This document shows positions 1-49,735 of a stretch of 64,000 nt of DNA, piece after piece. Origin of the DNA: Psilocybe cubensis (Eukaryota); NCBI GenBank assembly GCA_017499595.2, contig CM039008.1:1-64000 (forward strand), given 5' to 3'. How positions within the stretch are numbered: position 1 is the stretch's first letter; every line of letters begins with the position of its first letter. Made by a program: the position numbers and the translations under genes. The notes below the pieces were generated by a model that searched no databases, was not told where the DNA came from, and saw only the letters and a program-made list of their open reading frames with translations.

Positions 1-246
1 TAAACCCTAAACCCTAAACCCTAAACCCTAAACCCTAAACCCTAAACCCTAAACCCTAAACCCTAAACCCTAAACCCTAAACCCTAAACCCTAAACCCTA
101 AACCCTAAACCCTAAACCCTAAACCCTAAACCCTAAACCCTAAACCCTAAACCCTAAACCCTAAACCCTAAACCCTAAACCCTAAACCCTAAACCCTAAA
201 CCCTAAACCCTAAACCTAAACCCTAAACCCTAAACCCTAAACCCTA
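1..246 (+). repeat. Terminal telomeric tract (TAAACCC)n = (TTTAGGG)n; left chromosome end
   Basis: About 35 near-perfect 7-mer repeats from base 1, C-rich strand on +. Confidence 0.97.
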
Positions 247-807
247 ACCTAACCCCAACCCTAAGCTAACTAAGTCTAACCTTAGTAGGAAGTAAGGTAG
301 GCGTGTGAACTTCCGAACGGCATGTGATTGTGAAGGGCCGGATCTAATTTAGTACATGGGAAAAGTTACTTAGTACTTCGGGAAAAGTTCCTTAGTACCG
401 TGGAAACATTTTTGATGGACCGGATCATGAACTGTCCAATTAAGATTCACAACAATCAATCATTCTATTGTTTGATTGTTAGGTAAGGACCCAGGTAAGC
501 TATTTATACTCTAGACATGTGAATATTCCCATGTCGCGGTTACTCGGAGCCACGTAACCAGAGTAATCTATATCCATGTGATTCACATCACAGTCAATAA
601 CCCACGATGTCAAAGAACAAAAGTGTTGGATCCACTTTTGACAGGTTACCATGTGCCACATCGACCCGTGACACTCTGTTCATCAGAGACCTGTCTAACT
701 TGACAATAAACATTGACAGATTTGTGATAGTCGGTAAGATACATGACAGCTGCGCAGCATCACTTCACGCGCTGTCATCGGATGTCTAGAACATTCCTTC
801 TAAGAAT

Positions 808-1801
808 AGCCACTGAAGAGTCTATAAAGACGAAAGGGCTGGTTGTTGGGATCCCCCAACAGCCCTCAAGTACTCGTCCTCTCCCAAACTCCTGCCGCTT
901 GTGCCTTCCCAACTCATCCGGGAGCCCTTTCGTCACTGATCTTGCCCTTGACTCGGGGACGTTTCATCGACATGTTGGCTGCCTCACGGCAAGCGGGGCC
1001 CTTTTTCTTTCACTCGCTCACGCCTTCTATGTTGGGTTACGGAGGTCATACAAACTCGTTTTAGTCTAGCTGCGGGGATATCCAGCTATGATGACTTTGT
1101 AATTCGAGGGCGCGCAGTTCTTCAATGGGTATGGACATCAGGTGAGAGTACACTGGGGGTTGTCAGGACCAGCTCTGCTGGATACGCTCCTGGCAAGTCG
1201 GTTGCAGCCGGCGACACTACCGAATTGCTGGGACGTCCTAAAGCTTGTGGGTACCGCCGACCGCTGGAAACAGCCTAGGCACCGGTGGCGACCGGGTATG
1301 GTAACAATCCCCAAGATTCAGCGAAAGCTGGAATGGATAATCAGCAGCGAATCCGTAACGGTCACGCCGACGGAAGCGTTCAACGACTAGGTGGTAGTGG
1401 GGTCTTCGGATCTTAAGATATAGTCTTGGGAGTGGGGAAACCCACATCTGGTATCTAAACCGCGCCTCGCTGCTTACGAGGACGGCCCGAAGTCCAGAAC
1501 CGCTTAAAACGCGGGTGACCCGGCCTCCCCTTAGTAAAGGGAGTTAACACAAGGATGGACAAATAGTTCGTCGCCGGAAATGAACCTGTGGCTGTAATGG
1601 CTGATGTGGCGCCCCTTGGTAAAGGGCTTAAAGGGTATTAGCCTGCCATGTCCAATGGCATGAGAGTGTCCCTTGGTAAAGGACTTAATAGGCAATAGCC
1701 TGCTCTTTTGTCATGAGCGGTATGTAGTGATCGTTTGCCTGTACGGTAGCGCCCATTGCTTGCACTGGTCCACGCCCGTAAAAAATCACGAGCCGCTGGC
1801 C
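808..1801 (+). ncRNA. Type I hammerhead ribozyme split by a group I intron (halves 808-866 and 1796-1801)
   Basis: AGCCA-CTGAAGA-GTCT ataa AGAC-GAAA-GGGCTG...CAGCCC-T | intron | C-TGGC; the joined halves equal the intact copy at 6154-6218. Confidence 0.9.
867..1795 (+). ncRNA. Group I intron, IC1-like, 929 nt, no homing endonuclease (copy A)
   Basis: Upstream exon ends in U866 and intron ends in G1795. P AATTGCTGGGA about 1223, Q AATCAGCAGC 1339-1348, R GTTCAACGACTA about 1378-1389, S AAGATATAGTC 1415-1425. P3 CACTACC 1215-1221/GGTAGTG 1393-1399, P7 GACTA/TAGTC, P5b GCTG-GAAA-CAGC, P9 GTGGG-GAAA-CCCAC, IGS GGGGTTGT 1156-1163. Confidence 0.92.
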
Positions 1802-1909
1802 TTCTTTCTATTTCAAACTCACAGTTTAAACTAGTCGCTCGCACCTCGCTTCGCTCGGTGCTCGCTCCCCCCCTAAACCCAACGACTTTGCTATCACCCA
1901 TCAGTTACC

Positions 1910-3068
1910 ATGTCATCCCAATACTCTGCTGCATTCTCTCGTGCCATGTCCCCTACCCTGGACGCACTCACCCAGGCCGTCGTCAACAACACTGTCTTCG
2001 GCGTCAACGATGAAGCAGGCCGCCATAACGCTCTTATCGACGAGCTGGCCACTGTGGTCATCAAAAAAATAGCTGAGTGCCGCTCCGTTGACCAAGTCAT
2101 AGACTGCGTCTTTTTTGACTATCGTGCTGCCCTCAGGGAGTTTCTCCTCAACCTCGCATCGTGGTGCGACAAGAGGGAAACAGTCAAGGCTAGCCTCGAG
2201 CGCCTTGAATCTGCCGTTAGCGCAGGCAACACGCCCAATCGCCTTAAGGTGAAGGCACCCGAGTTCCAACTTACGAAGGAATTCGCGGATGCCGGGTCAG
2301 CGGAGGCTCTTCGAGTCTCCACTACGTTCTCTTCCGCTCGTGATGCCTTCCAAAAGGCAATTAACGACGGCGCCGTTCAGGCGAAAAAGGACGAGCTGGC
2401 TTTTTGGGATGATAAATGCGCACTCAACTCTTGCTACGAAGCTGCTGCCCTCATCGTTAAGGCAACTTACGATGATCGCAAATCCAGCTACAAGCTCCCT
2501 GTTTTCTCTACAGACAACAAGGGAGTTCGACGTATAGCAGAGTGGGTAGTGTCTCCGCAAAAGAAAGCCGAATGCAGTGCGCTGCAAACTATACTGCCGG
2601 CGATCTTTTCTCATATCAAACAGATTGTCAACATGCGCCACCGCGCCTTGGCAATTAAGATTGAGAAAAAGCGGACGACTGCGGCAACAGCCGATGTCGA
2701 GATGGCCGATGCGACCAAACCAGGTCCATCGATTCAATCCCTTATTGATAAGGGCTTGAATGCACGTCTCAAAAAGCTCAACCTTGGATCTGTGGGCAAG
2801 AAGGCAAGTTTTCGTAACCCTTCACCCATAATTCTGGACACTAATTATTACTCTAATTACCCAGACTTTGTCTGGCCAGAATTCGTCCAAGGCTCCTCAA
2901 CCTCAGGCCAGGAAAGCTGGCCCTTCGAAACCCAAGTCGTCGTCGACGCCTTCGCAGAGGAAGCCTCAAACCAAGGCTTCCAACAAGGTCGACAACAAGA
3001 AGAAAGGGAAGGGGAGAGCTCCCGTCAAGAACAACGATCCAAAGGGAAAGGGAAAGGCAAGAGCCTAG
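1910..3068 (+). CDS. Predicted spliced ORF1 isoform (exons 1910-2803 + 2865-3068, about 365 aa) with a Lys-rich C-terminal tail
   Basis: Removing the GC-AG intron joins ...VGKK to TLSGQNSSKAPQ...KGKGKARA*; substitutions between copies are synonymous in this frame. Confidence 0.72.
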
Positions 3069-5443
3069 ACGCGCGGTCTACTGTAGCATCATTTACGTCG
3101 GTGAGACCCGCCTTCCCCAACTCTATTCCTGACGATATACTCACCATGACTAAAACAGACGCAGTTTCTTTTGTACACCTCAATACCCCGATTTCATTCT
3201 TATTGGCTGGCCAGTATAGATCTAGTGTACACTGTAGTCCTGGTGTTTCGGTCCCTGTTGATGTAGCAAATGATTTATCTCTTGGACTCAATTATATGTT
3301 TTTTACACTGCCTTCTAAAAATCTGATCATGCAAGCATGGAATGATTTTCAACGAAGAATAAGATGGCGTATCTATTTTTTGTTTAAAGAAGGCATGAAT
3401 AAACCTTTCGATCCAGACTATGGAGTAAGCTCTAAAAAGAAAGAGAAACCTCCAATGTTACCGCAATTTATGGAACTTGGCCTTTCAATGGGACGTCGGT
3501 ACGTTATTAAAACGATCGCAAGTATCCCGGAAGAAGCCCTTAAAGAGATGCGAAAGCACGCGTTCTCTCCTAAAAGGGACAAGATCCAAAAGTTTCTTTT
3601 CGATAACAACTATGTTATTACGATGACAGATAAGAATCTTGGCCTCGCGGTGTCTGAACGCGACTGGATATTAAGGAATGAGCTCAATCTTCTTGAAGAT
3701 GAACGCAACTACGAAGAGTTAGAATTCGAAGTTGCGCAAGAAGTTATGAAGAGCAAAATGATTCAGATGCAAACTCTCGCACGTACCGTCGAAGATGAAC
3801 ATCTGTTTCTATTTGAACTTGGGTTGTCTCGATTCTTTCTATCGAATGTACCGGAAGACGGATCATCGTTCAAGTATCCTCAATTTCATGGTATACCTAA
3901 AATCCACAAGAAACCTACTGGATTTAGGCCCATAATTCCGTGTCACTCTGTAGTATTTAATCCTGCAGCCAAGTTTGTATCAAAAGAGCTTAAGCCGATT
4001 ATTAAATCGACTCCTTCAATCATTCACGGAACGAAGGATCTCTTTACGAGATTAAGCCAATTGCGTATAGACCCCAAACGACAATGGTATTTTGTCACCG
4101 GGGATGTAGTTGCTTTCTATCCCAATATTCCGTTGGACTTGTGCATCGAAATCGTTTGTAATATGTACGAGGAATGGTTACTCAACGCTTCGGAAGAGAA
4201 CACTGCATTAGCCCATATTAATCCAAATTCGTTAGAGAATAACTTGGTTAAATTGGGCATCTTTAAACGTGCTATCGAGATTGGCAATACGCAATTGATA
4301 ACACAACATGGGTCTAGATATTTTAGACAAAAAAATGGCCTCGCAATGGGCGTCGCGGATTCTCCGGACCTTGCTAACCTCTTTGGAGCCCATTTTGAAA
4401 TAAAGTCAAAAATCTTAGACCACCCAAACGTGGCCTTCTATGGAAGGTACATCGACGATTGTTTCGCAATTGTTTACGCCGAGTCCGAAGCACTTGCACT
4501 TAATCTTATTAAAGAAACAATAAAGTTCGATGGTTGTGTTATCGAATGGGCTGTTTCCTCGTCGGGATGTCAATTTCTCGATGCTTTCATATTCAAGGAG
4601 TCTGGAAAACTTCATTGGAAGCCATTTGTCAAGACAGGAAACAACCGAGAACGAGTTCCATGGGTATCACATCATCCTTTGGACGTCAAACGTGGCGTCT
4701 ACATTGGAGAGTTATCCAGGTTAGCCGTGCTATGTAGTACCAAGGAAATCTACATCGGAGCAATTAGAGACCTTAACGCTCTCTATTTGATGCGCGGTTA
4801 TCCCGAAAACCTAGTCATGTCTTGGTGTAAGAAGAATATACAAGAACGTTGGGAAAAGCGATTCGCTTTACGAGTCGCAGAGCACGACGAATCCATTCTT
4901 GTACTTAAAACCAGATTTGATCAGGTATGGAATTGGTTTTCAGCTGCTGAACTTGGAAAGACTGTTACCGAGTACTGGTCGGCATGGTATGAACATGCCG
5001 AGAAAGGTCTGTATAGTGCAGACTCGTCCAGACCCCTTATCAAACCAGATCCAAATTACGTTCACGACCTCGATGATGTTCGCCCGGAGCTGTTCACACA
5101 GATCCTCGTGGACGGAGAAACTGAGTTCGTACCGGATTTGAGGAAGATAGGACTACTCGGAAGTCGTTGGATAGTATCGCGAAAGCGCAATACTAATCTT
5201 TTCGACCTTGCAAATGTGTGGAAGAAAACAGTTTTTCGTAAACTGGATGAAGACATTGCCGAAAAAGGTGGTGTTGTTCCCGAAACTCAAAACGTTAATG
5301 AAACTTATCATTCTGCTCTAGTTGAAGCTGCTGAACAGATAAGTATCGAAAGTGATAACGAGATAATACTTCATAGACGTTCAATCTCACAAGAGAGGGA
5401 ACATCCAGAATTCGGCAGAATATCCAAATCTTACAACCGATGA
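1910..5443 (+). CDS. Penelope-like reverse transcriptase polyprotein (1177 aa), no recognisable GIY-YIG endonuclease
   Basis: RT motifs GIPKIHK, FRPII, GDVVAFYPNI, QKNGLAMG, RYIDD, FLD; helical N-terminal region. Confidence 0.93.
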   Translation: MSSQYSAAFSRAMSPTLDALTQAVVNNTVFGVNDEAGRHNALIDELATVVIKKIAECRSVDQVIDCVFFDYRAALREFLLNLASWCDKRETVKASLERLESAVSAGNTPNRLKVKAPEFQLTKEFADAGSAEALRVSTTFSSARDAFQKAINDGAVQAKKDELAFWDDKCALNSCYEAAALIVKATYDDRKSSYKLPVFSTDNKGVRRIAEWVVSPQKKAECSALQTILPAIFSHIKQIVNMRHRALAIKIEKKRTTAATADVEMADATKPGPSIQSLIDKGLNARLKKLNLGSVGKKASFRNPSPIILDTNYYSNYPDFVWPEFVQGSSTSGQESWPFETQVVVDAFAEEASNQGFQQGRQQEEREGESSRQEQRSKGKGKGKSLDARSTVASFTSVRPAFPNSIPDDILTMTKTDAVSFVHLNTPISFLLAGQYRSSVHCSPGVSVPVDVANDLSLGLNYMFFTLPSKNLIMQAWNDFQRRIRWRIYFLFKEGMNKPFDPDYGVSSKKKEKPPMLPQFMELGLSMGRRYVIKTIASIPEEALKEMRKHAFSPKRDKIQKFLFDNNYVITMTDKNLGLAVSERDWILRNELNLLEDERNYEELEFEVAQEVMKSKMIQMQTLARTVEDEHLFLFELGLSRFFLSNVPEDGSSFKYPQFHGIPKIHKKPTGFRPIIPCHSVVFNPAAKFVSKELKPIIKSTPSIIHGTKDLFTRLSQLRIDPKRQWYFVTGDVVAFYPNIPLDLCIEIVCNMYEEWLLNASEENTALAHINPNSLENNLVKLGIFKRAIEIGNTQLITQHGSRYFRQKNGLAMGVADSPDLANLFGAHFEIKSKILDHPNVAFYGRYIDDCFAIVYAESEALALNLIKETIKFDGCVIEWAVSSSGCQFLDAFIFKESGKLHWKPFVKTGNNRERVPWVSHHPLDVKRGVYIGELSRLAVLCSTKEIYIGAIRDLNALYLMRGYPENLVMSWCKKNIQERWEKRFALRVAEHDESILVLKTRFDQVWNWFSAAELGKTVTEYWSAWYEHAEKGLYSADSSRPLIKPDPNYVHDLDDVRPELFTQILVDGETEFVPDLRKIGLLGSRWIVSRKRNTNLFDLANVWKKTVFRKLDEDIAEKGGVVPETQNVNETYHSALVEAAEQISIESDNEIILHRRSISQEREHPEFGRISKSYNR
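2804..2864 (+). other. Putative 61-nt GC-AG spliceosomal intron inside the RT ORF (also 8909-8969, 15111-15171, 20830-20890, 26797-26857)
   Basis: AAG|GCAAGT donor, CTAAT branch-like motifs, CCCAG| acceptor; typical fungal intron size. Confidence 0.72.
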
Positions 5444-5556
5444 AAAGAATACTAGCGCGTAAGGCGTAAAGCATTAGAAAAAAACCCTAACCGTAAGTAT
5501 TCCTTGCTATAAAGTAACAAACATCTACTTACAAGCAACACTTTGGATTAAATAGC

Positions 5557-5630
5557 TAAACCTAAACCCTAAACCCTAAACCCTAAACCCTAACCTAACC
5601 CCAACCCTAAGCTAACTAAGTCTAACCTTA
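5557..5630 (+). repeat. Element-internal telomere-like block (TAAACCC x4-5 grading into TAACCTAACCCCAACCCTAAGCTAAC)
   Basis: Same block between the 3' UTR and pLTR in every copy that spans this region. Confidence 0.85.
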
Positions 5631-6153
5631 GTAGGAAGTAAGGTAGGCGTGTGAACTTCCGAACGGCATGTGATTGTGAAGGGCCGGATCTAATTTAGTA
5701 CATGGGAAAAGTTACTTAGTACTTCGGGAAAAGTTCCTTAGTACCGTGGAAACATTTTTGATGGACCGGATCATGAACTGTCCAATTAAGATTCACAACA
5801 ATCAATCATTCTATTGTTTGATTGTTAGGTAAGGACCCAGGTAAGCTATTTATACTCTAGACATGTGAATATTCCCATGTCGCGGTTACTCGGAGCCACG
5901 TAACCAGAGTAATCTATATCCATGTGATTCACATCACAGTCAATAACCCACGATGTCAAAGAACAAAAGTGTTGGATCCACTTTTGACAGGTTACCATGT
6001 GCCACATCGACCCGTGACACTCTGTTCATCAGAGACCTGTCTAACTTGACAATAAACATTGACAGATTTGTGATAGTCGGTAAGATACATGACAGCTGCG
6101 CAGCATCACTTCACGCGCTGTCATCGGATGTCTAGAACATTCCTTCTAAGAAT

Positions 6154-6218
6154 AGCCACTGAAGAGTCTATAAAGACGAAAGGGCTGGTTGTTGGGATCC
6201 CCCAACAGCCCTCTGGCC
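6154..6218 (+). ncRNA. Intact type I hammerhead ribozyme (predicted cleavage after C6213)
   Basis: Stem I GCCA/TGGC, core CTGAAGA, stem II GTCT-ataa-AGAC, GAAA, stem III GGGCTG/CAGCCC, NUH = CUC. Confidence 0.92.
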
Positions 6219-6290
6219 TTCTTTCTATTTCAAACTCACAGTTTAAACTAGTCGCTCGCACCTCGCTTCGCTCGGTGCTCGCTCCCCCCC

Positions 6291-6974: not shown

Positions 6975-7903
6975 CAAGTACTCGTCCTCTCCCAAACTCC
7001 TGCCGCTTGTGCCTTCCCAACTCATCCGGGAGCCCTTTCGTCACTGATCTTGCCCTTGACTCGGGGACGTTTCATCGACATGTTGGCTGCCTCACGGCAA
7101 GCGGGGCCCTTTTTCTTTCACTCGCTCACGCCTTCTATGTTGGGTTACGGAGGTCATACAAACTCGTTTTAGTCTAGCTGCGGGGTTATCCAGCTATGAT
7201 GACTTTGTAATTCGAGGGCGCGCAGTTCTTCAATGGGTATGGACATCAGGTGAGAGTACACTGGGGGTTGTCAGGACCAGCTCTGCTGGATACGCTCCTG
7301 GCAAGTCGGTTGCAGCCGGCGACACTACCGAATTGCTGGGACGTCCTAAAGCTTGTGGGTACCGCCGACCGCTGGAAACAGCCTAGGCACCGGTGGCGAC
7401 CGGGTATGGTAACAATCCCCAAGATTCAGCGAAAGCTGGAATGGATAATCAGCAGCGAATCCGTAACGGTCACGCCGACGGAAGCGTTCAACGACTAGGT
7501 GGTAGTGGGGTCTTCGGATCTTAAGATATAGTCTTGGGAGTGGGGAAACCCACATCTGGTATCTAAACCGCGCCTCGCTGCTTACGAGGACGGCCCGAAG
7601 TCCAGAACCGCTTAAAACGCGGGTGACCCGGCCTCCCCTTAGTAAAGGGAGTTAACACAAGGATGGACAAATAGTTCGTCGCCGGAAATGAACCTGTGGC
7701 TGTAATGGCTGATGTGGCGCCCCTTGGTAAAGGGCTTAAAGGGTATTAGCCTGCCATATCCAATGGCATGAGAGTGTCCCTTGGTAAAGGACTTAATAGG
7801 CAATAGCCTGCTCTTTTGTCATGAGCGGTATGTAGTGATCGTTTGCCTGTACGGTAGCGCCCATTGCTTGCACTGGTCCACGCCCGTAAAAAATCACGAG
7901 CCG
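6975..7903 (+). ncRNA. Group I intron in hammerhead (copy B)
   Basis: 929 nt, same U/G boundaries and core as 867-1795. Confidence 0.92.
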
Positions 7904-8014
7904 CTGGCTACTTTCCATTTAACTCCCAGTTTAAACTAGTCGCTCGCACCTCGCTTCGCTCGGTGCTCGCTCCCCCCCTAAACCCAACGACTTTGCTATT
8001 ATCCATCAGCCACT

Positions 8015-11000
8015 ATGTCATCTCAATACTCTGCTGCTTTCTCTCGTGCCATGTCCCCCACCCTGGACGCACTCACCCAGGCCGTCGTCAACAACACCGT
8101 TTTCGGCGTCAACGATGAAGCAGGCCGCCATAACGCTCTGATCGACGAGCTGGCCACTGTGGTCATCAAAAAAATAGCTGAGTGCCGCTCCGTTGACCAA
8201 GTCATAGACTGCGTCTTTTTTGACTATCGTGCTGCCCTTAGGGAGTTTCTCCTCAACCTCGCATCGTGGTGCGATAAGAGGGAAACAGTCAAGGCTAGCC
8301 TCGAGCGCCTTGAATCTGCCGTTAGCGCAGGCAACACGCCCAATCGCCTTAAGGTGAAGGCACCCGAGTTCCAACTTACGAAGGAATTCGCGGATGCCGG
8401 GTCAGCGGAGGCTCTTCGAGTCTCCACTACGTTCTCTACCGCTCGTGACGCCTTCCAAAAGGCAATTAACGACGGCGCCATTCAGGCGAAAAAGGACGAG
8501 CTGACTTTTTGGGATGATAAATGCGCACTCAACTCTTGCTACGAAGCTGCTGCCCTCATCGTTAAGGCAACTTACGATGATCGCAAATCCAGCTACAAGC
8601 TCCCTGTTTTCTCTACAGATAACAAGGGAGTTCGACGTATAGCAGAGTGGGTAGTGTCTCCGCAAAAGAAAGCCGAATGCAGTGCGCTGCAAACCATACT
8701 GCCGGCGATCTTTTCTCACATCAAACAAATTGTCAACATGCGCCACCGCGCTTTGGCAATTAAGATTGAGAAAAAGCGGACGACTGCGGCAACAGCCGAT
8801 GTCGAGATGGCCGACGCGACCAAACCAGGTCCGTCGATTCAATCCCTTATTGATAAGGGCTTGAATGCACGTCTCAAGAAGCTCAACCTTGGATCTGTGG
8901 GCAAGAAGGCAAGTTTTCGTAACCCTTCACCCATAATTCTGGATACTAATTACTACTCTAATTACCCAGACTTTGTCTGGCCAGAATTCGTCCAAGGCTC
9001 CTCAACCTCAGGCCAAGAAAGCTGGCCCTTCGAAACCCAAGTCGTCGTCGACGCCTTCGCAACGCAAGCCTCAAACCAAGGCTTCCAACAAGGTCGACAA
9101 CAAGAAGAAAGGGAAGGGGAGAGCTCCCGTCAAGAACGATCCAAAGGGAAAGGGAAAGGCAAGAGCCTAGATGCGCGGTCTAATGTAGTACCTTTTACGT
9201 CGGTGAGACCCGCCTTCCCCAACTCTATTCCTGACGATATACTCACCATGACTAAAACAGACGCAGTTTCTTTCGTACACTTACATACTCCAATATCATT
9301 CTTGTTGGCTGGCCAGTATCGTAGTAGTGTACATTGTAGTCCTGGTGTTTCTGTCCCTGTTGATGTAGCAAACGATCTCTCTCTCGGACTTAATTATATG
9401 TTTTTCACTCTGCCTTCTAAAAGTCTGATCATGCAAGCATGGAATGATTTCCAACGAAGAATAAGATGGCGTATCTATTTTTTGTTTAAGGAAGGCATGA
9501 ATAAACCTTTTGATCCAGATTATGGAGTAAGCTCAAAAAAGAAAGAGAAACCTCCTGTATTACCGCAATATATGGAACTTGGCCTTTCGATGGGACGTCG
9601 GTACGTGCAACGCACGATCGCAAGTATCCCGGAAGAAGCCCTTACGGAGATGCGAAAGCACGCGTTCTCTCCTAAAAGGGACAAGATCCGTAAGTTTCTT
9701 ATCGATAACAACTATGTTATTACGATGACAGATAAGAATCTTGGCCTCGCGGTGTCTGAACGCGACTGGATATTAAGGAATGAGCTCAATCTTCTTGAAG
9801 ATGAACGTAATTACGAAGAGTTAGAATTCGAAGTTGCGCAAGAAGTTATGAAGAGCAAAATGATTCAGATGCAAACGCTCGCACGTACTGTCGAAGATGA
9901 ACATCTGTTTCTATTTGAACTTGGGTTGTCTCGATTCTTTCTATCGAATGTACCGGAAGACGGATCATCGTTCAAGTATCCTCAATTTCATGGTATACCT
10001 AAAATCCACAAGAAACCTACTGGATTTAGGCCCATAATTCCGTGTCACTCTGTAGTATTTAATCCTGCAGCCAAGTTTGTATCAAAAGAGCTTAAGCCGA
10101 TTATTAAATCGACTCCTTCAATCATACACGGAACGAAGGATCTCTTTACGAGATTAAGCCAATTGCGTATAGACTCCAAAAGACAATGGTATTTTGTCAC
10201 TGGAGATGTAGTTGCTTTCTATCCCAATATTCCGTTGGACTTGTGCATCGAAATCGTTTGTAGTATGTACGAGGAATGGTTACTCAACGCTTCGGAAGAA
10301 AACACTGCATTAGCCCATATTAATCCAAATTCGTTAGAGAATAACTTGGTTAAATTGGGCATCTTTAAACGTGCTATCGAGATTGGCAATACGCAATTGA
10401 TAACACAACATGGGTCTAGATATTTTAGACAAAAAAATGGCCTCGCAATGGGCGTCGCGGATTCTCCGGACCTTGCTAACCTCTTTGGAGCCCATTTTGA
10501 AATAAAGTCAAAAATCTTAGACCACCCAAACGTGGCCTTCTATGGAAGGTACATCGACGATTGTTTCGCAATTGTTTACGCCGAGTCCGAAGCACTTGCA
10601 CTTAATCTTATTAAAGAAACAATAAAGTTCGATGGTTGTGTTATCGAATGGGCTGTTTCCTCGTCGGGATGTCAATTTCTCGATGCTTTCATATTCAAGG
10701 AGTCTGGAAAACTTCATTGGAAGCCTTTTGTCAAGACAGGAAACAACCGAGAACGAGTTCCATGGGTATCACATCATCCTTTGGACGTCAAACGTGGCGT
10801 CTACATTGGAGAGTTATCCAGGTTAGCCGTGCTATGTAGTACCAAGGAAATCTACATCGGAGCAATTAGAGACCTTAACGCTCTCTATTTGATGCGCGGT
10901 TATCCCGAAAACCTAGTCATATCTTGGTGTAAGAAGAATATACAAGAACGTTGGGAAAAGCGATTCGCTTTACGAGTCGCAGAGCACGACGAATCCATTC

Positions 11001-13175: not shown

Positions 13176-14104
13176 CAAGTACTCGTCCTCTCCCAAACTC
13201 CTGCCGCTTGTGCCTTCCCAACTCATCCGGGAGCCCTTTCGTCACTGATCTTGCCCTTGACTCGGGGACGTTTCATCGACATGTTGGCTGCCTCACGGCA
13301 AGCGGGGCCCTTTTTCTTTCACTCGCTCACGCCTTCTATGTTGGGTTACGGAGGTCATACAAACTCGTTTTAGTCTAGCTGCGGGGTTATCCAGCTATGA
13401 TGACTTTGTAATTCGAGGGCGCGCAGTTCTTCAATGGGTATGGACATCAGGTGAGAGTACACTGGGGGTTGTCAGGACCAGCTCTGCTGGATACGCTCCT
13501 GGCAAGTCGGTTGCAGCCGGCGACACTACCGAATTGCTGGGACGTCCTAAAGCTTGTGGGTACCGCCGACCGCTGGAAACAGCCTAGGCACCGGTGGCGA
13601 CCGGGTATGGTAACAATCCCCAAGATTCAGCGAAAGCTGGAATGGATAATCAGCAGCGAATCCGTAACGGTCACGCCGACGGAAGCGTTCAACGACTAGG
13701 TGGTAGTGGGGTCTTCGGATCTTAAGATATAGTCTTGGGAGTGGGGAAACCCACATCTGGTATCTAAACCGCGCCTCGCTGCTTACGAGGACGGCCCGAA
13801 GTCCAGAACCGCTTAAAACGCGGGTGACCCGGCCTCCCCTTAGTAAAGGGAGTTAACACAAGGATGGACAAATAGTTCGTCGCCGGAAATGAACCTGTGG
13901 CTGTAATGGCTGATGTGGCGCCCCTTGGTAAAGGGCTTAAAGGGTATTAGCCTGCCATGTCCAATGGCATGAGAGTGTCCCTTGGTAAAGGACTTAATAG
14001 GCAATAGCCTGCTCTTTTGTCATGAGCGGTATGTAGTGATCGTTTGCCTGTACGGTAGCGCCCATTGCTTGCACTGGTCCACGCCCGTAAAAAATCACGA
14101 GCCG
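13176..14104 (+). ncRNA. Group I intron in hammerhead (copy C)
   Basis: 929 nt, same boundaries and core. Confidence 0.92.
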
Positions 14105-14216: not shown

Positions 14217-17200
14217 ATGTCTTCCACTTACTCTGCTGCCTTCTCTCGTGCCATGTCCCCCACCCTGGACGCACTCACCCAGGCTGTCGTCAACAACACA
14301 GTTTTTGGCGTCAACGACGAAGCTGGCCGCCACAACGCCCTCATCGACGAGTTGGCCACTGTCGTCATCAAGAAAATAGCTGAGTGCCGCTCCATTGACC
14401 AGATTGTAGACTGCGTCTTTTTTGACTATCGTGCTGCCCTTAGGGAGTTTCTCCTCAACCTCGCATCGTGGTGCGATAAGAGGGAAACAGTCAAGGCTAG
14501 CCTCGAGCGCCTTGAACTTGCCGTTAGCGCAGGCAACACCCCCAATCGCCTTCGGGTGAAGGCTCCCGAGTTCCAACTTACGAAGGAATTCGCGGATGCC
14601 GGGTCAGCGGAAGCTCTTCGAGTTTCCTCTACGTTCTCCACCGCTCGTGATGTCTTCCAAAAGGCAATCAACGACGGCGCCATTCAGGCGAAAAAGGACG
14701 AACTGGCCTTTTGGGATGATAAATGCGCACTCAATAACTGTTATGAAGCTGCTGCCCTCATCGTTAAGACAACTTACGATGATCGCAAATCCAGCTATAA
14801 GCTCCCCGTTTTCTCTACAGACAACAAGGGAGTTCGTCGAATAACAGATTGGGTAGTGTCACCGCAGAAGAAGGCTGAATGCAGCGCATTGCAAACCATT
14901 TTGCCAGCCATCTTCTCTCATATCAAACAGATTGTCAACTTGCGCCACCGCGCTTTGGCAATCAAGATTGAGAAAAAGCGGTCGACTGCGGCAACAGCCG
15001 ATGTCGAGATGGCCGATGCGACCAAACCAGGTCCATCGATTCAATCCCTTATTGATAAGGGCTTGAATGCACGTCTCAAGAAGCTCAACCTTGGATCTGT
15101 GGGCAAGAAGGCAAGTTCTCGTAACCCTTCACCCATAACTCTGGATACTAATTACTATTCTAATTACCCAGACTTTGTCTGGCCAGAATTCGTCCAAGGC
15201 TCCTCAACCTCAGGCCAAGAAAGCTGGCCCTTCGAAATTCAAACCCTCGTCGACGCCTTCGCAGAAGAAGCCCCAAACCAAGGCTTCCAACAAGGTCGAC
15301 AACAAGAAGAAAGGGAAGGGGAGAGCTCCCGTCAAGAACGATCCAAAGGGAAAGGGAAAGGCAAGAGCCTAGACGCGCGGTCTAATGTAGTACCTTTTAC
15401 GTCGGTAAGACCCGCCTTCCCCAACTCTATTCCTGACGATATACTCACCATGACTAAAACAGACGCAGTTTCTTTTGTACACTTACATACGCCGATCTCA
15501 TTCTTGTTGGCTGGCCAGTATCGTAGTAGTGTACACTGTAGTCCTGGTGTGGTGGTCCCTGTAGATATAGCAAATGATTTGTCACTCGGACTCAATTATA
15601 TGTTTTTTACTCTACCTTCTCAAAGTCTGATCATGCAAGCATGGAATGATTTTCAACGAAGAATAAGATGGCGTATCTATTTTTTGTTTAAGGAAGGCAT
15701 GAACAAACCTTTTGATCCAGATTACGGAGTAAGCTCAAAAAAGAAAGAGAAACCTCCAGTATTACCGCAATACATGGAACTTGGCCTTTCGATGGGACGT
15801 CGGTACGTGCAACGCACGATCGCAAGTATCCCGGAAGAAGCCCTTACGGAGATGCGAAAGCACGCGTTCTCTCCTAAAAGGGACAAGATCCGTAAGTTTC
15901 TTATCGATAACAACTATGTTATTACGATGACAGATAAGAATCTTGGCCTCGCGGTGTCTGAACGCGACTGGATATTAAGGAATGAGCTCAATCTTCTTGA
16001 AGATGAACGTAACTATGAAGAGTTAGAATTCGAAGTTGCGCAAGAAGTAATGAAGAGCAAAATGATCCAGATGCAAACTCTTGCACGTACCGTCGAAGAT
16101 GAACATCTGTTTCTATTTGAACTTGGGTTGTCTCGATTCTTTCTATCGAATGTACCGGAAGACGGATCATCGTTCAAGTACCCTCAATTTCATGGTATAC
16201 CTAAAATCCACAAAAAACCTACTGGATTTAGGCCCATAATTCCGTGTCACTCTGTAGTATTTAATCCTGCAGCCAAGTTTGTATCAAAAGAGCTTAAGCC
16301 GATTATTAAATCGACTCCTTCAATCATTCACGGAACGAAGGATCTCTTTACGAGATTAAGCCAATTGCGTATAGACCCCAAACGACAATGGTATTTTGTC
16401 ACCGGGGATGTAGTTGCTTTCTATCCCAATATTCCGTTGGACTTGTGCATCGAAATCGTTTGTAATATGTACGAGGAATGGTTACTCAACGCTTCGGAAG
16501 AAAACACTGCATTAGCCCATATTAATCCAAATTCGTTAGAGAATAACTTGGTTAAATTGGGCATCTTTAAACGTGCTATCGAGATTGGCAATACGCAATT
16601 GATAACACAACATGGGTCTAGATATTTTAGACAAAAAAAATGGCCTCGCAATGGGCGTCGCGGATTCTCCGGACCTTGCTAACCTCTTTGGAGCCCATTT
16701 TGAAATAAAGTCAAAAATCTTAGACCACCCAAACGTGGCCTTCTATGGAAGGTACATCGACGATTGTTTCGCAATTGTTTACGCCGAGTCCGAAGCACTT
16801 GCACTTAATCTTATTAAAGAAACAATAAAGTTCGATGGTTGTGTTATCGAATGGGCTGTTTCCTCGTCGGGATGTCAATTTCTCGATGCTTTCATATTCA
16901 AGGAGTCTGGAAAACTTCATTGGAAGCCATTTGTCAAGACAGGAAACAACCGAGAACGAGTTCCATGGGTATCACATCATCCTTTGGACGTCAAACGTGG
17001 CGTCTACATTGGAGAGTTATCCAGGTTAGCCGTGCTATGTAGTACCAAGGAAATCTACATCGGAGCAATTAGAGACCTTAACGCTCTCTATTTGATGCGC
17101 GGTTATCCCGAAAACCTAGTCATGTCTTGGTGTAAGAAGAATATACAAGAACGTTGGGAAAAGCGATTCGCTTTACGAGTCGCAGAGCACGACGAATCCA

Positions 17201-20517: not shown

Positions 20518-23500
20518 AAGCTCCCCGTTTTCTCTACAGACAACAAGGGAGTTCGTCGAATAACAGATTGGGTAGTGTCACCGCAGAAGAAGGCTGAATG
20601 CAGCGCATTGCAAACCATTTTGCCAGCCATCTTCTCTCATATCAAACAGATTGTCAACTTGCGCCACCGCGCTTTGGCAATCAAGATTGAGAAAAAGCGG
20701 TCGACTGCGGCAACAGCCGATGTCGAGATGGCCGATGCGACCAAACCAGGTCCATCGATTCAATCCCTTATTGATAAGGGCTTGAATGCACGTCTCAAGA
20801 AGCTCAACCTTGGATCTGTGGGCAAGAAGGCAAGTTCTCGTAACCCTTCACCCATAATTCTGGATACTAATTACTATTCTAATTACCCAGACTTTGTCTG
20901 GCCAGAATTCGTCCAAGGCTCCTCAACCTCAGGCCAAGAAAGCTGGCCCTTCGAAATTCAAACCCTCGTCGACGCCTTCGCAGAAGAAGCCCCAAACCAA
21001 GGCTTCCAACAAGGTCGACAACAAGAAGAAAGGGAAGGGGAGAGCTCCCGTCAAGAACGATCCAAAGGGAAAGGGAAAGGCAAGAGCCTAGACGCGCGGT
21101 CTAATGTAGTACCTTTTACGTCGGTAAGACCCGCCTTCCCCAACTCTATTCCTGACGATATACTCACCATGACTAAAACAGACGCAGTTTCTTTTGTACA
21201 CTTACATACGCCGATCTCATTCTTGTTGGCTGGCCAGTATCGTAGTAGTGTACACTGTAGTCCTGGTGTGGTGGTCCCTGTAGATATAGCAAATGATTTG
21301 TCGCTCGGACTCAATTATATGTTTTTTACTCTGCCTTCTCAAAGTCTGATCATGCAAGCATGGAATGATTTTCAACGAAGAATAAGATGGCGTATCTATT
21401 TTTTGTTTAAGGAAGGCATGAACAAACCTTTTGATCCAGATTACGGAGTAAGCTCAAAAAAGAAAGAGAAACCTCCAGTATTACCGCAATACATGGAACT
21501 TGGCCTTTCGATGGGACGTCGGTACGTGCAACGCACGATCGCAAGTATCCCGGAAGAAGCCCTTACGGAGATGCGAAAGCACGCGTTCTCTCCTAAAAGG
21601 GACAAGATCCGTAAGTTTCTTATCGATAACAACTATGTTATTACGATGACAGATAAGAATCTTGGCCTCGCGGTGTCTGAACGCGACTGGATATTAAGGA
21701 ATGAGCTCAATCTTCTTGAAGATGAACGTAACTATGAAGAGTTAGAATTCGAAGTTGCGCAAGAAGTAATGAAGAGCAAAATGATCCAGATGCAAACTCT
21801 TGCACGTACCGTCGAAGATGAACATCTGTTTCTATTTGAACTTGGGTTGTCTCGATTCTTTCTATCGAATGTACCGGAAGACGGATCATCGTTCAAGTAT
21901 CCTCAATTTCATGGTATACCTAAAATCCACAAGAAACCTACTGGATTTAGGCCCATAATTCCGTGTCACTCTGTAGTATTTAATCCTGCAGCCAAGTTTG
22001 TATCAAAAGAGCTTAAGCCGATTATTAAATCGACTCCTTCAATCATTCACGGAACGAAGGATCTCTTTACGAGATTAAGCCAATTGCGTATAGACCCCAA
22101 ACGACAATGGTATTTTGTCACCGGGGATGTAGTTGCTTTCTATCCCAATATTCCGTTGGACTTGTGCATCGAAATCGTTTGTAGTATGTACGAGGAATGG
22201 TTACTCAATGCTTCGGAAGAAAACACTGCATTAGCCCATATTAATCCAAATTCGTTAGAGAATAACTTGGTTAAATTGGGCATCTTTAAACGTGCTATCG
22301 AGATTGGCAATACGCAATTGATAACACAACATGGGTCTAGATATTTTAGACAAAAAAATGGCCTCGCAATGGGCGTCGCGGATTCTCCGGACCTTGCTAA
22401 CCTCTTTGGAGCCCATTTTGAAATAAAGTCAAAAATCTTAGACCACCCTAATGTGGCCTTCTATGGAAGGTACATCGACGATTGTTTTGCAATTGTTTAC
22501 GCCGAGTCCGAAGCACTTGCACTTAATTTAATTAAAGAAACAATAAAGTTCGATGGTTGTGTTATCGAATGGGCTGTTTCCTCGTCGGGATGTCAATTTC
22601 TCGATGCTTTCATATTCAAGGAGTCTGGAAAACTTCATTGGAAGCCTTTTGTCAAGACAGGAAACAACCGAGAACGAGTTCCATGGGTATCACATCATCC
22701 TTTAGACGTCAAACGTGGCGTTTACATTGGAGAGTTATCCAGGTTAGCCGTGCTATGTAGTACCAAGGAAATCTACATTGGAGCAATTAGAGACCTTAAC
22801 GCTCTCTATTTGATGCGCGGTTATCCCGAAAACCTAGTCATGTCTTGGTGTAAGAAGAATATACAAGAACGTTGGGAAAAGCGATTCGCTTTACGAATCG
22901 CAGAGCACGACGAATCCATTCTTGTACTTAAAACCAGGTTTGATCAGGTATGGAATTGGTTTTCAGCTGCTGAACTTGGAAAAACTGTTACCGAGTACTG
23001 GTCGGCATGGTATGAACATGCCGAGAAAGGTCTGTATAGTGTAGACTCGTCCAGACCCCTTATCAAACCAGATCCAAATTACGTTCACGACCTCGATGAT
23101 GTTCGCCCGGAGCTGTTCACACAGATCCTCGTGGACGGAGAAACTGAGTTCGTACCGGATTTGAGGAAGATAGGACTACTCGGAAGTCGTTGGATAGTAT
23201 CGCGAAAGCGCAATACTAATCTTTTCGACCTTGCAAATGTGTGGAAGAAAACAGTTTTTCGTAAACTGGATGAAGACATTGCCGAAAAAGGTGGTGTTGT
23301 TCCCGAAACTCAAAACGTTAATGAAACTTATCATTCTGCTCTAGTTGAAGCTGCTGAACAGATAAGTATCGAAAGCGATAACGAGATAATACTTCATAGA
23401 CGTTCAATCTCACAAGAGAGGGAACATCCAGAATTCGGCAGAATATCCAAATCTTACAACCGATGAAAAGAATACTAGCGCTTAAGGCGTAAAGCATTAG

Positions 23501-25136: not shown

Positions 25137-28100
25137 TAAACCTAAACCTAAACCCTAAACCCTAAACCCTAAGCCCTAACCTAACCCCAACCCTAAGCTA
25201 ACTAAGTCTAACCTTAGTAGGAAGTAAGGTAGGCGTGTGAACTTCCGAACGGCATGTGATTGTGAAGGGCCGGATCTAATTTAGTACATGGGAAAAGTTA
25301 CTTAGTACTTCGGGAAAAGTTCCTTAGTACCGTGGAAACATTTTTGATGGACCGGATCATGAACTGTCCAATTAAGATTCACAACAATCAATCAATTGAT
25401 TGTTAGGTAAGGACCCAGGTAAGCTATTTATACTCTTGACATGTGAATATTCCCATGTCGCGGTTACTCGGAGCCACGTAACCAGAGTAATCTATATCCA
25501 TGTGATTCACATCACAGTCAATAACCCACGATGTCAAAGAACAAAAGTGTTGGATCCACTTTTGACAGGTTACCATGTGCCACATTGACCCGTGACACTC
25601 TGTTCATCAGAGACCTGTCTAACTTGACAATAAACATTGACAGATTTGTGATAGTCGGTAAGATACATGACAGCTGCACAGCATCACTTCACGCGCTGTC
25701 ATCGGATGTCTAGAACATTCCTTCTAAGAATAGCCACTGAAGAGTCTATAAAGACGAAAGGGCTGGTTGTTGGTACCCCCCAACAGCCCTCTGGCCTTCT
25801 TTCCATTTAACTCACAGTTTAAACAAGTCGCTCGCACCTCGCTTCGCTCGGTGCTCGCTCCCCCCCTAAACCCAACGACTTTGCTATTACCCAACAGCTA
25901 CCATGTCTTCCACTTACTCTGCTGCCTTCTCTCGTGCCATGTCCCCCACCCTGGACGCACTCACCCAGGCTGTCGTCAACAACACAGTTTTTGGCGTCAA
26001 CGACGAAGCTGGCCGCCACAACGCCCTCATCGACGAGTTGGCCACTGTCGTCATCAAGAAAATAGCTGAGTGCCGCTCCATTGACCAGATTGTAGACTGC
26101 GTCTTTTTTGACTATCGTGCTGCCCTTAGGGAGTTTCTCCTCAACCTCGCATCGTGGTGCGATAAGAGGGAAACAGTCAAGGCTAGCCTCGAGCGCCTTG
26201 AACTTGCCGTTAGCGCAGGCAACACCCCCAATCGCCTTCGGGTGAAGGCTCCCGAGTTCCAACTTACGAAGGAATTCGCGGATGCCGGGTCAGCGGAAGC
26301 TCTTCGAGTTTCCTCTACGTTCTCCACCGCTCGTGATGTCTTCCAAAAGGCAATCAACGACGGCGCCATTCAGGCGAAAAAGGACGAACTGGCCTTTTGG
26401 GATGATAAATGCGCACTCAATAACTGTTATGAAGCTGCTGCCCTCATCGTTAAGACAACTTACGATGATCGCAAATCCAGCTATAAGCTCCCCGTTTTCT
26501 CTACAGACAACAAGGGAGTTCGTCGAATAACAGATTGGGTAGTGTCACCGCAGAAGAAGGCTGAATGCAGCGCATTGCAAACCATTTTGCCAGCCATCTT
26601 CTCTCATATCAAACAGATTGTCAACTTGCGCCACCGCGCTTTGGCAATCAAGATTGAGAAAAAGCGGTCGACTGCGGCAACAGCCGATGTCGAGATGGCC
26701 GATGCGACCAAACCAGGTCCATCGATTCAATCCCTTATTGATAAGGGCTTGAATGCACGTCTCAAGAAGCTCAACCTTGGATCTGTGGGCAAGAAGGCAA
26801 GTTCTCGTAACCCTTCACCCATAATTCTGGATACTAATTACTATTCTAATTACCCAGACTTTGTCTGGCCAGAATTCGTCCAAGGCTCCTCAACCTCAGG
26901 CCAAGAAAGCTGGCCCTTCGAAATTCAAACCCTCGTCGACGCCTTCGCAGAAGAAGCCCCAAACCAAGGCTTCCAACAAGGTCGACAACAAGAAGAAAGG
27001 GAAGGGGAGAGCTCCCGTCAAGAACGATCCAAAGGGAAAGGGAAAGGCAAGAGCCTAGACGCGCGGTCTAATGTAGTACCTTTTACGTCGGTAAGACCCG
27101 CCTTCCCCAACTCTATTCCTGACGATATACTCACCATGACTAAAACAGACGCAGTTTCTTTTGTACACTTACATACGCCGATCTCATTCTTGTTGGCTGG
27201 CCAGTATCGTAGTAGTGTACACTGTAGTCCTGGTGTGGTGGTCCCTGTAGATATAGCAAATGATTTGTCGCTCGGACTCAATTATATGTTTTTTACTCTG
27301 CCTTCTCAAAGTCTGATCATGCAAGCATGGAATGATTTTCAACGAAGAATAAGATGGCGTATCTATTTTTTGTTTAAGGAAGGCATGAACAAACCTTTTG
27401 ATCCAGATTACGGAGTAAGCTCAAAAAAGAAAGAGAAACCTCCAGTATTACCGCAATACATGGAACTTGGCCTTTCGATGGGACGTCGGTACGTGCAACG
27501 CACGATCGCAAGTATCCCGGAAGAAGCCCTTACGGAGATGCGAAAGCACGCGTTCTCTCCTAAAAGGGACAAGATCCGTAAGTTTCTTATCGATAACAAC
27601 TATGTTATTACGATGACAGATAAGAATCTTGGCCTCGCGGTGTCTGAACGCGACTGGATATTAAGGAATGAGCTCAATCTTCTTGAAGATGAACGTAACT
27701 ATGAAGAGTTAGAATTCGAAGTTGCGCAAGAAGTAATGAAGAGCAAAATGATCCAGATGCAAACTCTTGCACGTACCGTCGAAGATGAACATCTGTTTCT
27801 ATTTGAACTTGGGTTGTCTCGATTCTTTCTATCGAATGTACCGGAAGACGGATCATCGTTCAAGTATCCTCAATTTCATGGTATACCTAAAATCCACAAG
27901 AAACCTACTGGATTTAGGCCCATAATTCCGTGTCACTCTGTAGTATTTAATCCTGCAGCCAAGTTTGTATCAAAAGAGCTTAAGCCGATTATTAAATCGA
28001 CTCCTTCAATCATTCACGGAACGAAGGATCTCTTTACGAGATTAAGCCAATTGCGTATAGACCCCAAACGACAATGGTATTTTGTCACCGGGGATGTAGT

Positions 28101-49684: not shown

Positions 49685-49735
49685 TAAACCCTAAACCCTA
49701 AACCCTAAACCCTAAACCCTAAAACCTAACCCTAA
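49685..49735 (+). repeat. Interstitial telomeric tract
   Basis: TAAACCC x5 plus degenerate units. Confidence 0.88.

What the first reader, a model, noticed from the sequence alone, without database searches (positions are those of the whole stretch)
2804..3068. Retained GC-AG intron switches between ORF1 and ORF1-RT; dual-coding segment under selection
Seen: a 61-nt AAG|GCAAGT...CTAAT...CAG| segment is open in the RT frame. Removing it shifts to a Lys-rich frame that stops at 3068. Between copies A and B, TCGCAGAGGAAG vs TCGCAACGCAAG is silent in the alternative frame (SQRK) but changes AEE to ATQ in the RT frame. A 3-nt indel preserves both frames. All five copies spanning it keep the intron. 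Known: PLEs can retain introns. Inference: splicing sets the ratio of a basic RNA-binding protein to RT.
Basis: partly seen in the sequence, partly recalled or inferred. Interest (0 to 1): 0.72.

Follow-up and report, generated by a model that had tools for sequence, protein, structure and literature searches.

The report
Retained intron switches ORF1 and ORF1-RT
A telomere-attached fungal retroelement carries a short, evolutionarily conserved intron whose removal appears to yield a small basic protein and whose retention appears to yield the same protein fused to reverse transcriptase, which could explain why these elements keep their introns.

Summary
The window is a chromosome end carrying a head-to-tail array of endonuclease-less Penelope-like (Coprina-type) retroelements. 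Best protein hits are Psilocybe cubensis, 98-99% identical.

All five copies spanning the site carry a 61-nt AAG|GCAAGT...CTAAT...CAG| segment (2804-2864). It is open in the ORF1/RT frame. Removing it leads to a Lys-rich frame that stops at 3066-3068.

Comparison with 18 metagenome relatives (about 32-66% protein identity) supports a real intron:
- All 21 sequences have an intron at the same codon boundary.
- Lengths are 49, 55, 58 or 61 nt, always 3n+1.
- The introns carry 0 stop triplets in the RT frame, against 29 and 38 in the other two frames.

In the 174-222-nt segment after the intron, selection acts on the spliced frame. dN/dS there is 0.31-0.40, against 0.72-1.17 in the RT frame.

The RT frame has no AUG in this segment (12 of 12 lineages). 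No slippery site is conserved.

Best reading: spliced RNA gives ORF1 with a basic tail, and unspliced RNA gives the ORF1-RT fusion. No RNA data could be obtained, so splicing itself is inferred. "Dual coding" holds only in a limited sense: the RT frame is kept open, but its amino acids are not constrained.

The parts
1..250 (+). Terminal telomere tract, (CCCTAAA)n
   Evidence: Shorter tracts of the same 7-mer separate the element copies.
250..867 (+). 5' terminal repeat (pLTR) of copy A. It ends in a fungal-type hammerhead motif at about 812-867.
   Evidence: blastn self-map: 250-867 is repeated at 5596-6213. The hammerhead was assigned by eye (CTGAAGAG..GAAA..long helix III) from the description in PMC4209133. 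Rfam did not call it.
1910..2803 (+). ORF1 exon 1 (298 codons from the first ATG): helical domain
   Evidence: dN/dS 0.11-0.29 in this frame. AlphaFold model of the annotated spliced form: pLDDT above 90 over about residues 40-260.
2804..2864 (+). 61-nt GC-AG intron: donor GCAAGT 2804-2809, branch CTAAT 2841-2845 (A 20 nt before the 3' end), acceptor CAG 2862-2864. It reads ASFRNPSPIILDTNYYSNYP(D) in the RT frame.
   Evidence: Homologous introns in 18 of 18 loci that hold the junction.
2865..3068 (+). Overlap. In the spliced frame it is ORF1 exon 2: a 67-aa Lys/Pro/Ser-rich tail with stop TAG at 3066-3068. In the unspliced frame it is a linker between ORF1 and RT.
   Evidence: dN/dS 0.39 (spliced frame) against 0.72 (RT frame) within the window, and 0.31 against 1.17 in clade L019-L023. 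Third-position excess in the spliced frame.
1910..5443 (+). Read-through ORF1-linker-RT frame (1177 aa) of the unspliced RNA
   Evidence: 78 of 120 listed database relatives cover at least 90% of it as one protein (my count of the table).
3620..3652 (+). TMTDKNLGLAV ('DKN') motif of Penelope-like RTs
   Evidence: Invariant T571-V581 in alignment A1. The motif name is taken from PMC13159263.
4448..4459 (+). RT active-site YIDD
   Evidence: Y847-D850 are invariant. The region matches Drt3a RT, E 4.2e-6.
5556..6290 (+). Short internal telomere tract plus the 3' pLTR of copy A
8909..8969 (+). Same intron in copy B
15111..15171 (+). Same intron in the third copy (its RT frame is broken further downstream)
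20830..20890 (+). Same intron in the 5'-truncated fourth copy
26797..26857 (+). Same intron in the fifth copy (intact 1187-codon frame)

Best explanation
The element is an endonuclease-less Penelope-like (Coprina-type) telomeric retrotransposon. Its single long frame hides a conserved spliceosomal intron placed at a Lys codon boundary near the end of ORF1.

- Spliced RNA: the reading frame moves by +1, and ORF1 ends about 60-70 codons later in a disordered Lys/Pro/Ser-rich tail. This gives a roughly 365-aa Gag-like protein, presumably nucleic-acid-binding.
- Unspliced RNA: the intron is 3n+1 nt long and free of in-frame stops, so the ribosome reads through it and through an unconstrained linker into the RT. 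This gives a 1177-aa ORF1-RT fusion.
- Splicing efficiency would therefore set the ORF1 : ORF1-RT ratio. Frameshifting does this for retroviral Gag : Gag-Pol.
- Only intron-containing RNA encodes RT. If the RT acts on the RNA that encoded it, new copies would always keep the intron.

Shown here: conservation of the intron, its phase and its stop-free state; purifying selection on the spliced frame; no AUG and no conserved slippery site for separate RT expression.

Inferred: that both RNA forms exist and are translated, that the tail binds nucleic acid, and the cis action.
For: 1. Intron signals and position. In 21 of 21 sequences (18 loci plus 3 window variants) the donor starts at a codon boundary after AAG (19) or AAA (2), and the acceptor is YAG. 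CTAAY lies exactly 20 nt before the 3' end in 13 of 21.
2. Length classes are 49 (7 sequences), 55 (3), 58 (5) and 61 (6), all 3n+1.
3. Stop triplets inside the introns: RT frame 0, +1 frame 29, +2 frame 38. For interior shuffles, the probability of no in-frame stop is 0.37-0.81 per lineage, with a product of 1.0e-3 over 12 lineage representatives.
4. Introns are less G+C-rich (0.34-0.53) than the flanking coding sequence (0.47-0.64).
5. Overlap dN/dS in the spliced frame is 0.31, 0.40 and 0.39, and 0.37 in the broad set. In the RT frame it is 1.17, 1.06, 0.72 and 1.30. In the third frame it is 1.36, 1.28, 1.64 and 0.88. An RT-guided alignment gives the same picture. Controls: exon 1 is 0.11-0.29, RT is 0.13-0.17, and the off-frames of these controls are above 1.
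6. Variable columns by spliced-frame codon position number 30, 32 and 60 (chi-square p = 0.001).
7. The spliced tails align across clades: they begin (N)TSGPSTSK and end KGKGKA(K/R)A.
8. The RT frame has 0 stops in the overlap in 12 of 12 representatives. The third frame has 6.
9. There is no Met in the RT frame within the overlap in 12 of 12. The first Met lies 19-72 codons past the ORF1 stop, inside the conserved RT N-terminus.
10. The RT-frame protein alignment is well conserved up to the intron, poorly conserved with many indels across the overlap, and conserved again just after the ORF1 stop.
11. Genome annotators predicted spliced ORF1 proteins with this tail in P. cubensis, P. cyanescens, P. 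cf. subviscida and Plicaturopsis crispa.
12. The tail is predicted disordered (pLDDT below 50 for residues 292-361) behind a confident helical domain.
Against: - No RNA evidence: no RNA-type run covered the junction.
- The annotated gene models choose differing splice sites and may be ab initio.
- The overlap is T-poor (8-13% T), so open frames there are cheap: the third frame is open in 7 of 12 representatives.
- The 21 introns share ancestry, so the stop-free and 3n+1 statistics are not fully independent. Only four length classes imply at least three 3n indels, roughly p = 0.04 on their own.
- Within the window the selection signal rests on 11 variable columns.
- The window RT-frame dN/dS of 0.72 is not clearly neutral.
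- An ascomycete Coprina element is described with two separate ORFs (PMC13159263, passages read), so fusion is not universal in the clade.
Confidence: 0.68

Rival explanations
1. The intron is spliced constitutively. RT is made from the spliced RNA by -1 programmed ribosomal frameshifting in the overlap, since after splicing RT lies in the -1 frame relative to ORF1.
For: The frame relation is the classical gag/pol -1 arrangement. X_XXY_YYZ heptamers (A_AAG_GGA, G_GGA_AAG) lie 19-28 nt before the ORF1 stop in the window and in L001 and L002. PMC8557442 (Fig. 1 legend, read as a passage) says ORF1 of some Penelope-like elements is separated by a frameshift with a pseudoknot.
Against: 5 of 12 lineage representatives have no such heptamer in the overlap, and none is conserved in place. 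The KGK codons vary synonymously, which destroys the heptamers. This model does not explain why the intron is always 3n+1 and stop-free in the RT frame.
Confidence: 0.12
2. RT is translated on its own, from spliced or unspliced RNA, by reinitiation, internal entry or a non-AUG start near the ORF1 stop. The open read-through frame is incidental.
For: The ORF1 stop lies only about 10-20 codons before RT-frame conservation resumes. That geometry would suit termination-reinitiation. A two-ORF Coprina element exists in Ascochyta lentis (PMC13159263).
Against: There is no AUG in the RT frame in the overlap in 12 of 12 lineages. The first AUG lies inside the conserved N-terminal region, up to 72 codons past the ORF1 stop. 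The stop-free 3n+1 intron is left unexplained.
Confidence: 0.1
3. The segment is never spliced. The element makes only one polyprotein, and the splice-like motifs and alternative-frame signal are by-products of composition.
For: All genomic copies keep the segment. 78 of 120 listed relatives are called as one long ORF. All three frames are open in the window.
Against: Synonymous-type change is concentrated in the alternative frame in three clades, and the RT frame there looks like an off-frame. Donor, branch and acceptor are kept while the sequence between them diverges. G+C drops inside the segment.
Confidence: 0.05

Closest known systems
Coprina / Athena endonuclease-less Penelope-like elements (Gladyshev and Arkhipova 2007, recalled, full text not held; PMC8557442 and PMC13159263, passages read)
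   Same: Telomeric head-to-tail arrays. ORFs point away from the chromosome end. Short reverse-complement telomere tracts at the 3' end. 5'-truncated copies capped by telomere repeats. DKN motif plus RT, and no endonuclease domain found. A hammerhead-like motif in the terminal repeat.
   Different: PMC13159263 describes Coprina as typically having one ORF, and none of the papers I could read mentions an ORF1 intron. Here the one ORF appears to be two products separated by an alternatively retained intron.
Intron retention in Penelope and other PLEs (Arkhipova et al. 2003, recalled; PMC8557442 and PMC3846280, passages read)
   Same: A spliceosomal intron is kept in retrotransposed copies.
   Different: In Penelope and Chlamys the studied intron lies in the 5' UTR, and its retention is called unexplained or attributed to an antisense or unspliced template. 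Here the intron is inside the coding region, is frame-preserving, and has a proposed coding role.
Splicing-derived Gag-only subgenomic RNA of LTR retrotransposons: BARE1 (PMC3735527, abstract read), Arabidopsis Ty1/copia (PMC5580714, listing only), Drosophila copia (recalled)
   Same: One long ORF. Splicing gives an RNA that encodes only the structural protein, which raises Gag over Pol. Unspliced RNA serves for polyprotein synthesis and replication.
   Different: That is a different retroelement class, with large or different introns. Here a 49-61-nt intron works by a +1 frame change into a dedicated C-terminal tail that overlaps the fusion linker.
Retroviral and LTR-element gag-pol -1 frameshifting
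   Same: It sets a ratio between a structural protein and its fusion to the polymerase. The spliced-frame geometry is -1.
   Different: No conserved slippery site. The decision is proposed to be made by the spliceosome, not the ribosome.
LINE-1 ORF1p-type chaperones
   Same: A helical N-terminal domain with a basic region upstream of RT, which suggests RNP formation.
   Different: No sequence or fold match was found. The likeness is functional analogy only.

Membership tests
Endonuclease-less Penelope-like element (Coprina type) | RT with the PLE-specific DKN motif and a YxDD active site | tested here: met
   TMTDKNLGLAV and YIDD are invariant in 19 of 19 aligned relatives. There is a weak RT hit to Drt3a (E 4.2e-6). 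Pfam RVT_1 was not found by my scans, but it is precomputed for the 98%-identical P0003.
Endonuclease-less Penelope-like element (Coprina type) | No GIY-YIG endonuclease domain | tested here: met
   No Pfam family at E<=1 in the 791-aa RT part. The ORF ends shortly after the conserved C-terminal block.
Endonuclease-less Penelope-like element (Coprina type) | Telomeric location, 5' ends facing the telomere, telomere repeats between copies and at 5' truncations | tested here: met
Endonuclease-less Penelope-like element (Coprina type) | Hammerhead ribozyme in the terminal repeat | tested here: inconclusive
   A motif is seen by eye at about 812-867. Rfam gave no hit at E<=0.1. MFE folds do not show the three-way junction.
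Endonuclease-less Penelope-like element (Coprina type) | Phylogenetic placement with reference Coprina RTs | not testable with these tools
Spliceosomal intron (GC-AG class in Psilocybe, GT-AG elsewhere) | Donor, branch point and acceptor consensus at a conserved position, with typical fungal length | tested here: met
   21 of 21 sequences. The window donor AAG|GCAAGT matches the consensus at every position except +2.
Spliceosomal intron (GC-AG class in Psilocybe, GT-AG elsewhere) | Removal seen in RNA | tested here: inconclusive
   No RNA-type run covered the site. There are only gene models.
Splicing-controlled Gag / Gag-Pol expression (copia/BARE type) | The spliced RNA encodes the structural protein alone, and that frame is under selection | tested here: met
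   dN/dS 0.31-0.40 in the spliced frame in three clades.
Splicing-controlled Gag / Gag-Pol expression (copia/BARE type) | The unspliced RNA is translated into the polymerase-containing protein | tested here: inconclusive
   Indirect only: 3n+1 length, 0 in-frame stops, and no AUG for RT.
-1 programmed ribosomal frameshift site | A conserved X_XXY_YYZ heptamer in the upstream frame within the overlap | tested here: not met
   Absent in 5 of 12 lineage representatives. No shared position.

The most novel reading that the evidence does not exclude
Intron retention in Penelope-like elements is not a side effect of an odd replication mechanism. It is the element's gene-expression switch and its template filter. 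Only intron-containing RNA can encode RT, so an RT that acts on the RNA it was translated from copies only unspliced RNA. This keeps the intron for tens to hundreds of millions of years. Spliced RNA supplies excess ORF1. The donor strength (GC in Psilocybe; weak GTGCGC, GTACGA and GTGAAT elsewhere) would tune the ratio.
Probability: 0.4. Interest if true: 0.78.

Novelty: new variant of a known kind. Interest (0 to 1): 0.62.

Why it matters
Penelope-like elements are the closest retroelement relatives of telomerase. They are known for keeping spliceosomal introns, and the papers I could read call this unexplained (PMC8557442) or attribute it to an antisense or unspliced template (PMC3846280).

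A conserved, frame-preserving, stop-free intron that separates 'ORF1 alone' from 'ORF1-RT' gives a concrete, testable reason for retention. It would add a third way, beside frameshifting and stop read-through, for a non-LTR-type element to set its structural-protein-to-polymerase ratio. It also changes annotation: Coprina elements would be two-product, not one-ORF, elements.

I found no description of this in the searchable library (searches). The founding Coprina paper (PNAS 2007) and the 2017 Terminon paper were not held, and supplements were closed. Prior description there cannot be excluded.

Tried and rejected
- RNA evidence: the look-up of sequencing runs listed no RNA holder. I laid X14, X23 and X24 (guessed RNA) and X6. 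X14 gave three short pieces (300-376, 4430-4590, 4729-4964). X23 and X24 gave only 1816-1877. Nothing covered the junction, so nothing can be said about expression or splicing. X6 (DNA-like) has a contig through 2676-2910 with the intron, and no joint at 2803/2865.
- Whole genome: none is held.
- Intron-less contigs: I looked for proteins from intron-unaware ORF callers that carry the spliced junction. 0 of 4 jgi/ena hits did (P0137, P0138, P0139, P0141). All spliced forms found were genome gene models.
- Family scans: Pfam scans of ORF1, RT and the tail gave nothing above noise. PDB sequence searches gave nothing for ORF1 or RT and only Drt3a at E 0.076 for the profile.
- Fold search: Foldseek of the ORF1 model against the PDB gave no match at E<=0.001, so the ORF1 fold remains unassigned.
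- Frame openness as evidence: rejected, because the third frame is also open in the window and in 7 of 12 representatives.
- L025 (32% identity): it has a candidate 61-nt intron at a different codon phase. I left it out of all counts as uncertain.
- Loci without a usable junction: L004, L010, L015-L018 and L026-L030 were not used. They are contig-truncated or too diverged.
- MFE folding of the hammerhead region was uninformative.

Full report
**What the window is.** Positions 1-250 are (CCCTAAA)n. A head-to-tail array of roughly 6.1-kb units follows, separated by short tracts of the same repeat.
- Each full unit carries one long frame. Three are intact: 1877-5443, 7982-11545 and 25870-29433.
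- Other units are frame-broken, or 5'-truncated and capped by telomere repeats.
- The 1177-aa product (P0001) is 98-99% identical to Psilocybe cubensis proteins. It is 35-64% identical to many proteins of about 1170 aa from 4-6-kb metagenome contigs.
- It has the invariant TMTDKNLGLAV and YIDD motifs, and no endonuclease domain was found.
- With the telomeric setting, this fits the endonuclease-less Penelope-like elements of the Coprina type, as described in PMC8557442 and PMC13159263 (passages read).

**The observation.**
- The sequence has AAG|GCAAGT at 2801-2809, CTAAT at 2841-2845 and 2853-2857, and CAG at 2862-2864.
- The 61 nt are open in the long frame.
- From 2865 the +1 frame reads a 67-aa Lys/Pro/Ser-rich peptide ending at TAG 3066-3068.
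- Five of five copies that span the site have the segment.
- Copies A and B differ at 2957-2960 in a way that is silent in the alternative frame. A 3-nt indel lies at 3030-3032.
- On its own this is thin. There are only three sequence variants, and all three forward frames are open because the stretch is T-poor.

**Relatives.** One scan of metagenome contigs with the family alignment returned 30 loci. Eighteen hold the ORF1-RT junction: L001-L003, L005-L009, L011-L014 and L019-L024. They represent about 11 lineages beside the window, at 39-66% protein identity.
- In all 18, and in the three window variants (21 of 21), an intron-like segment starts at the same codon boundary. That boundary lies after a Lys codon following the conserved ...SIQSLIDKGLNARLKK... 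block.
- Donors are GTAAGA, GTAAGT, GTGAGT, GTGAGC, GTTAGT, GTGAAT, GTGCGC and GTACGA. Only the window has GCAAGT.
- 13 of 21 have CTAAY with its branch A exactly 20 nt before the 3' end. The others have variants such as CTAAG, TTAAC, CTGAT or ACTCAC.
- All 21 end in YAG.
- Lengths are 49 (7 sequences), 55 (3), 58 (5) and 61 (6). All are 3n+1.
- G+C drops inside the segment: 0.34-0.53 against 0.47-0.64 in the flanks.
- P. cyanescens proteins read 'KKAS' at the site. The GC donor therefore seems to be shared within Psilocybe.

**Is the spliced frame coding?** Yes, by three measures.
- *Tail conservation.* Tails translated after in-silico splicing align across lineages. They begin (N)TSGPSTSK and end KGKGKA(K/R)A. 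Within clade L019-L023 a block PLPYVPKPGRKVPDATKGG is kept.
- *dN/dS.* Nei-Gojobori values over the overlap:

| Frame | L019-L023 | L008/9/11 | Window A/B/C | Broad set |
|---|---|---|---|---|
| Spliced frame | 0.31 | 0.40 | 0.39 | 0.37 |
| RT frame | 1.17 | 1.06 | 0.72 | 1.30 |
| Third frame | 1.36 | 1.28 | 1.64 | 0.88 |

  Guiding the alignment by the RT-frame protein gives the same result. Control regions give 0.11-0.29 (exon 1) and 0.13-0.17 (RT) in their true frames, and above 1 in off-frames.
- *Codon position.* Variable alignment columns fall 30, 32 and 60 on spliced-frame codon positions 1, 2 and 3 (p = 0.001).

The RT-frame protein alignment agrees. It is conserved up to the intron, is a poorly conserved stretch with many indels across the overlap, and is conserved again right after the ORF1 stop.

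**Is the unspliced RNA read through?** The evidence is indirect but consistent.
- The introns contain 0 stop triplets in the RT frame, against 29 and 38 in the other frames. This is despite TAA-containing donor and branch motifs and TAG acceptors.
- For shuffles of the intron interior, the probability of no in-frame stop is 0.37-0.81 per lineage. The product is 1.0e-3 over 12 representatives. The lineages are related, so this overstates independence.
- All length changes are multiples of three.
- In the overlap the RT frame has 0 stops in 12 of 12 representatives. The third frame has 6.
- The RT frame has no AUG in the overlap in 12 of 12. The first AUG lies 19-72 codons beyond the ORF1 stop, inside the conserved N-terminal region.
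- 78 of the 120 listed database relatives cover at least 90% of the fused protein as one ORF (my count). That search was restricted to 647-2060 aa, so it is biased toward fused forms.

**Rivals.**
- *Frameshifting.* After splicing, RT lies in the -1 frame, so -1 frameshifting is the main rival. Slippery heptamers exist in 7 of 12 representatives and are absent in 5. None is conserved in place, and synonymous variation in the KGK codons breaks them. Frameshifting also would not need a 3n+1 stop-free intron.
- *Independent initiation.* This lacks an AUG.
- *Never spliced.* This is contradicted by the frame-specific selection.

**ORF1.** A model of the annotated spliced form (P0125, with 23 relatives as alignment) is confident (mean pLDDT 78). 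It is largely helical with one hairpin over about residues 30-260. The tail, residues 292-361, is disordered. No PDB sequence or fold match was found. 'RNA-binding' rests on composition and analogy only.

**RNA data.** None was usable. Spliced ORF1 proteins exist as gene models in four agaric genomes. Their evidence base is unknown.

**Comparison with the literature.**
- Intron retention in Penelope-like elements is known, but its significance is stated to be unknown (PMC8557442). An antisense or unspliced template has been proposed (PMC3846280).
- Coprina is described as typically one-ORF (PMC13159263).
- Splicing that yields a Gag-only RNA is established for BARE (PMC3735527, abstract). It is listed for Arabidopsis Ty1/copia (PMC5580714, listing only).
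- I therefore rate this a new variant of a known kind. The caveat is that the 2007 Coprina paper and the 2017 Terminon paper could not be read.

**Verdict.** Splicing and read-through remain to be shown in RNA and protein.

Noticed in passing
window 867-1795 (also in the copies starting at 6358 and 12567); ribozyme core 1151-1447, 7178-7555, 13379-13756: A 929-nt insert holding a full-length group I intron match (Rfam RF00028, 71-73 bits, E about 1e-16) interrupts the 5' terminal repeat of 3 copies. Twelve other repeat junctions in the window (10 complete, 2 partial) are 'empty' and read ...CAGCCCTC|TGGCCTTC.... The empty form also appears as loose ends in DNA run X6. One boundary assignment fits the group I rules: the 5' exon ends in U866 and the insert ends in G1795. 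No ORF in the insert has a Pfam match. 0 of 20 relatives' loci have an Rfam hit. A self-splicing intron in a nuclear, non-rDNA retroelement would be unusual. I found no description of one.
   Followed up: partly
window 812-880 and 6158-6226: The group I insert sits exactly at the predicted cleavage site of the hammerhead-like motif in the terminal repeat (CTGAAGAG-hairpin-GAAA-long helix III-TC|). The short helix I (AGCC/GGCU next to the site) can pair only in the insert-free form. Excision of the insert would therefore restore the hammerhead. This was assigned by eye. Rfam and MFE folding do not confirm it.
   Followed up: partly
window 1-250 and the inter-copy tracts; L007 3' end: The telomere unit is the 7-mer CCCTAAA (TTTAGGG), not the 6-mer CCCTAA reported for another agaric, Agrocybe chaxingu (PMC11433599, passages). 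A related metagenome locus ends in similar 7- and 8-mer variants.
   Followed up: no
window 5556-6290 against 250-867 plus 1796-1870: The 3' terminal repeat ends ...GCTCCCCCCCTAAACCC and runs straight into telomere repeats. The same sequence on the 5' side leads into ORF1. This fits priming on the telomeric overhang by the RNA 3' end.
   Followed up: no
window 48805-49723: An isolated 3' fragment of the element, followed by an interstitial telomere tract about 49 kb from the chromosome end. This looks like an older, internalised chromosome end.
   Followed up: no
window 59179-64000: A Ty3/gypsy-like LTR retrotransposon with aspartyl protease, RVT_1 and RNase H domains. It runs off the window.
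   Followed up: no
P0004, P0005 (P. cubensis gene models): The public 1080-1081-aa models keep the 61-nt intron as coding. They splice out about 95 conserved RT N-terminal residues instead. This is probably mis-annotation.
   Followed up: no
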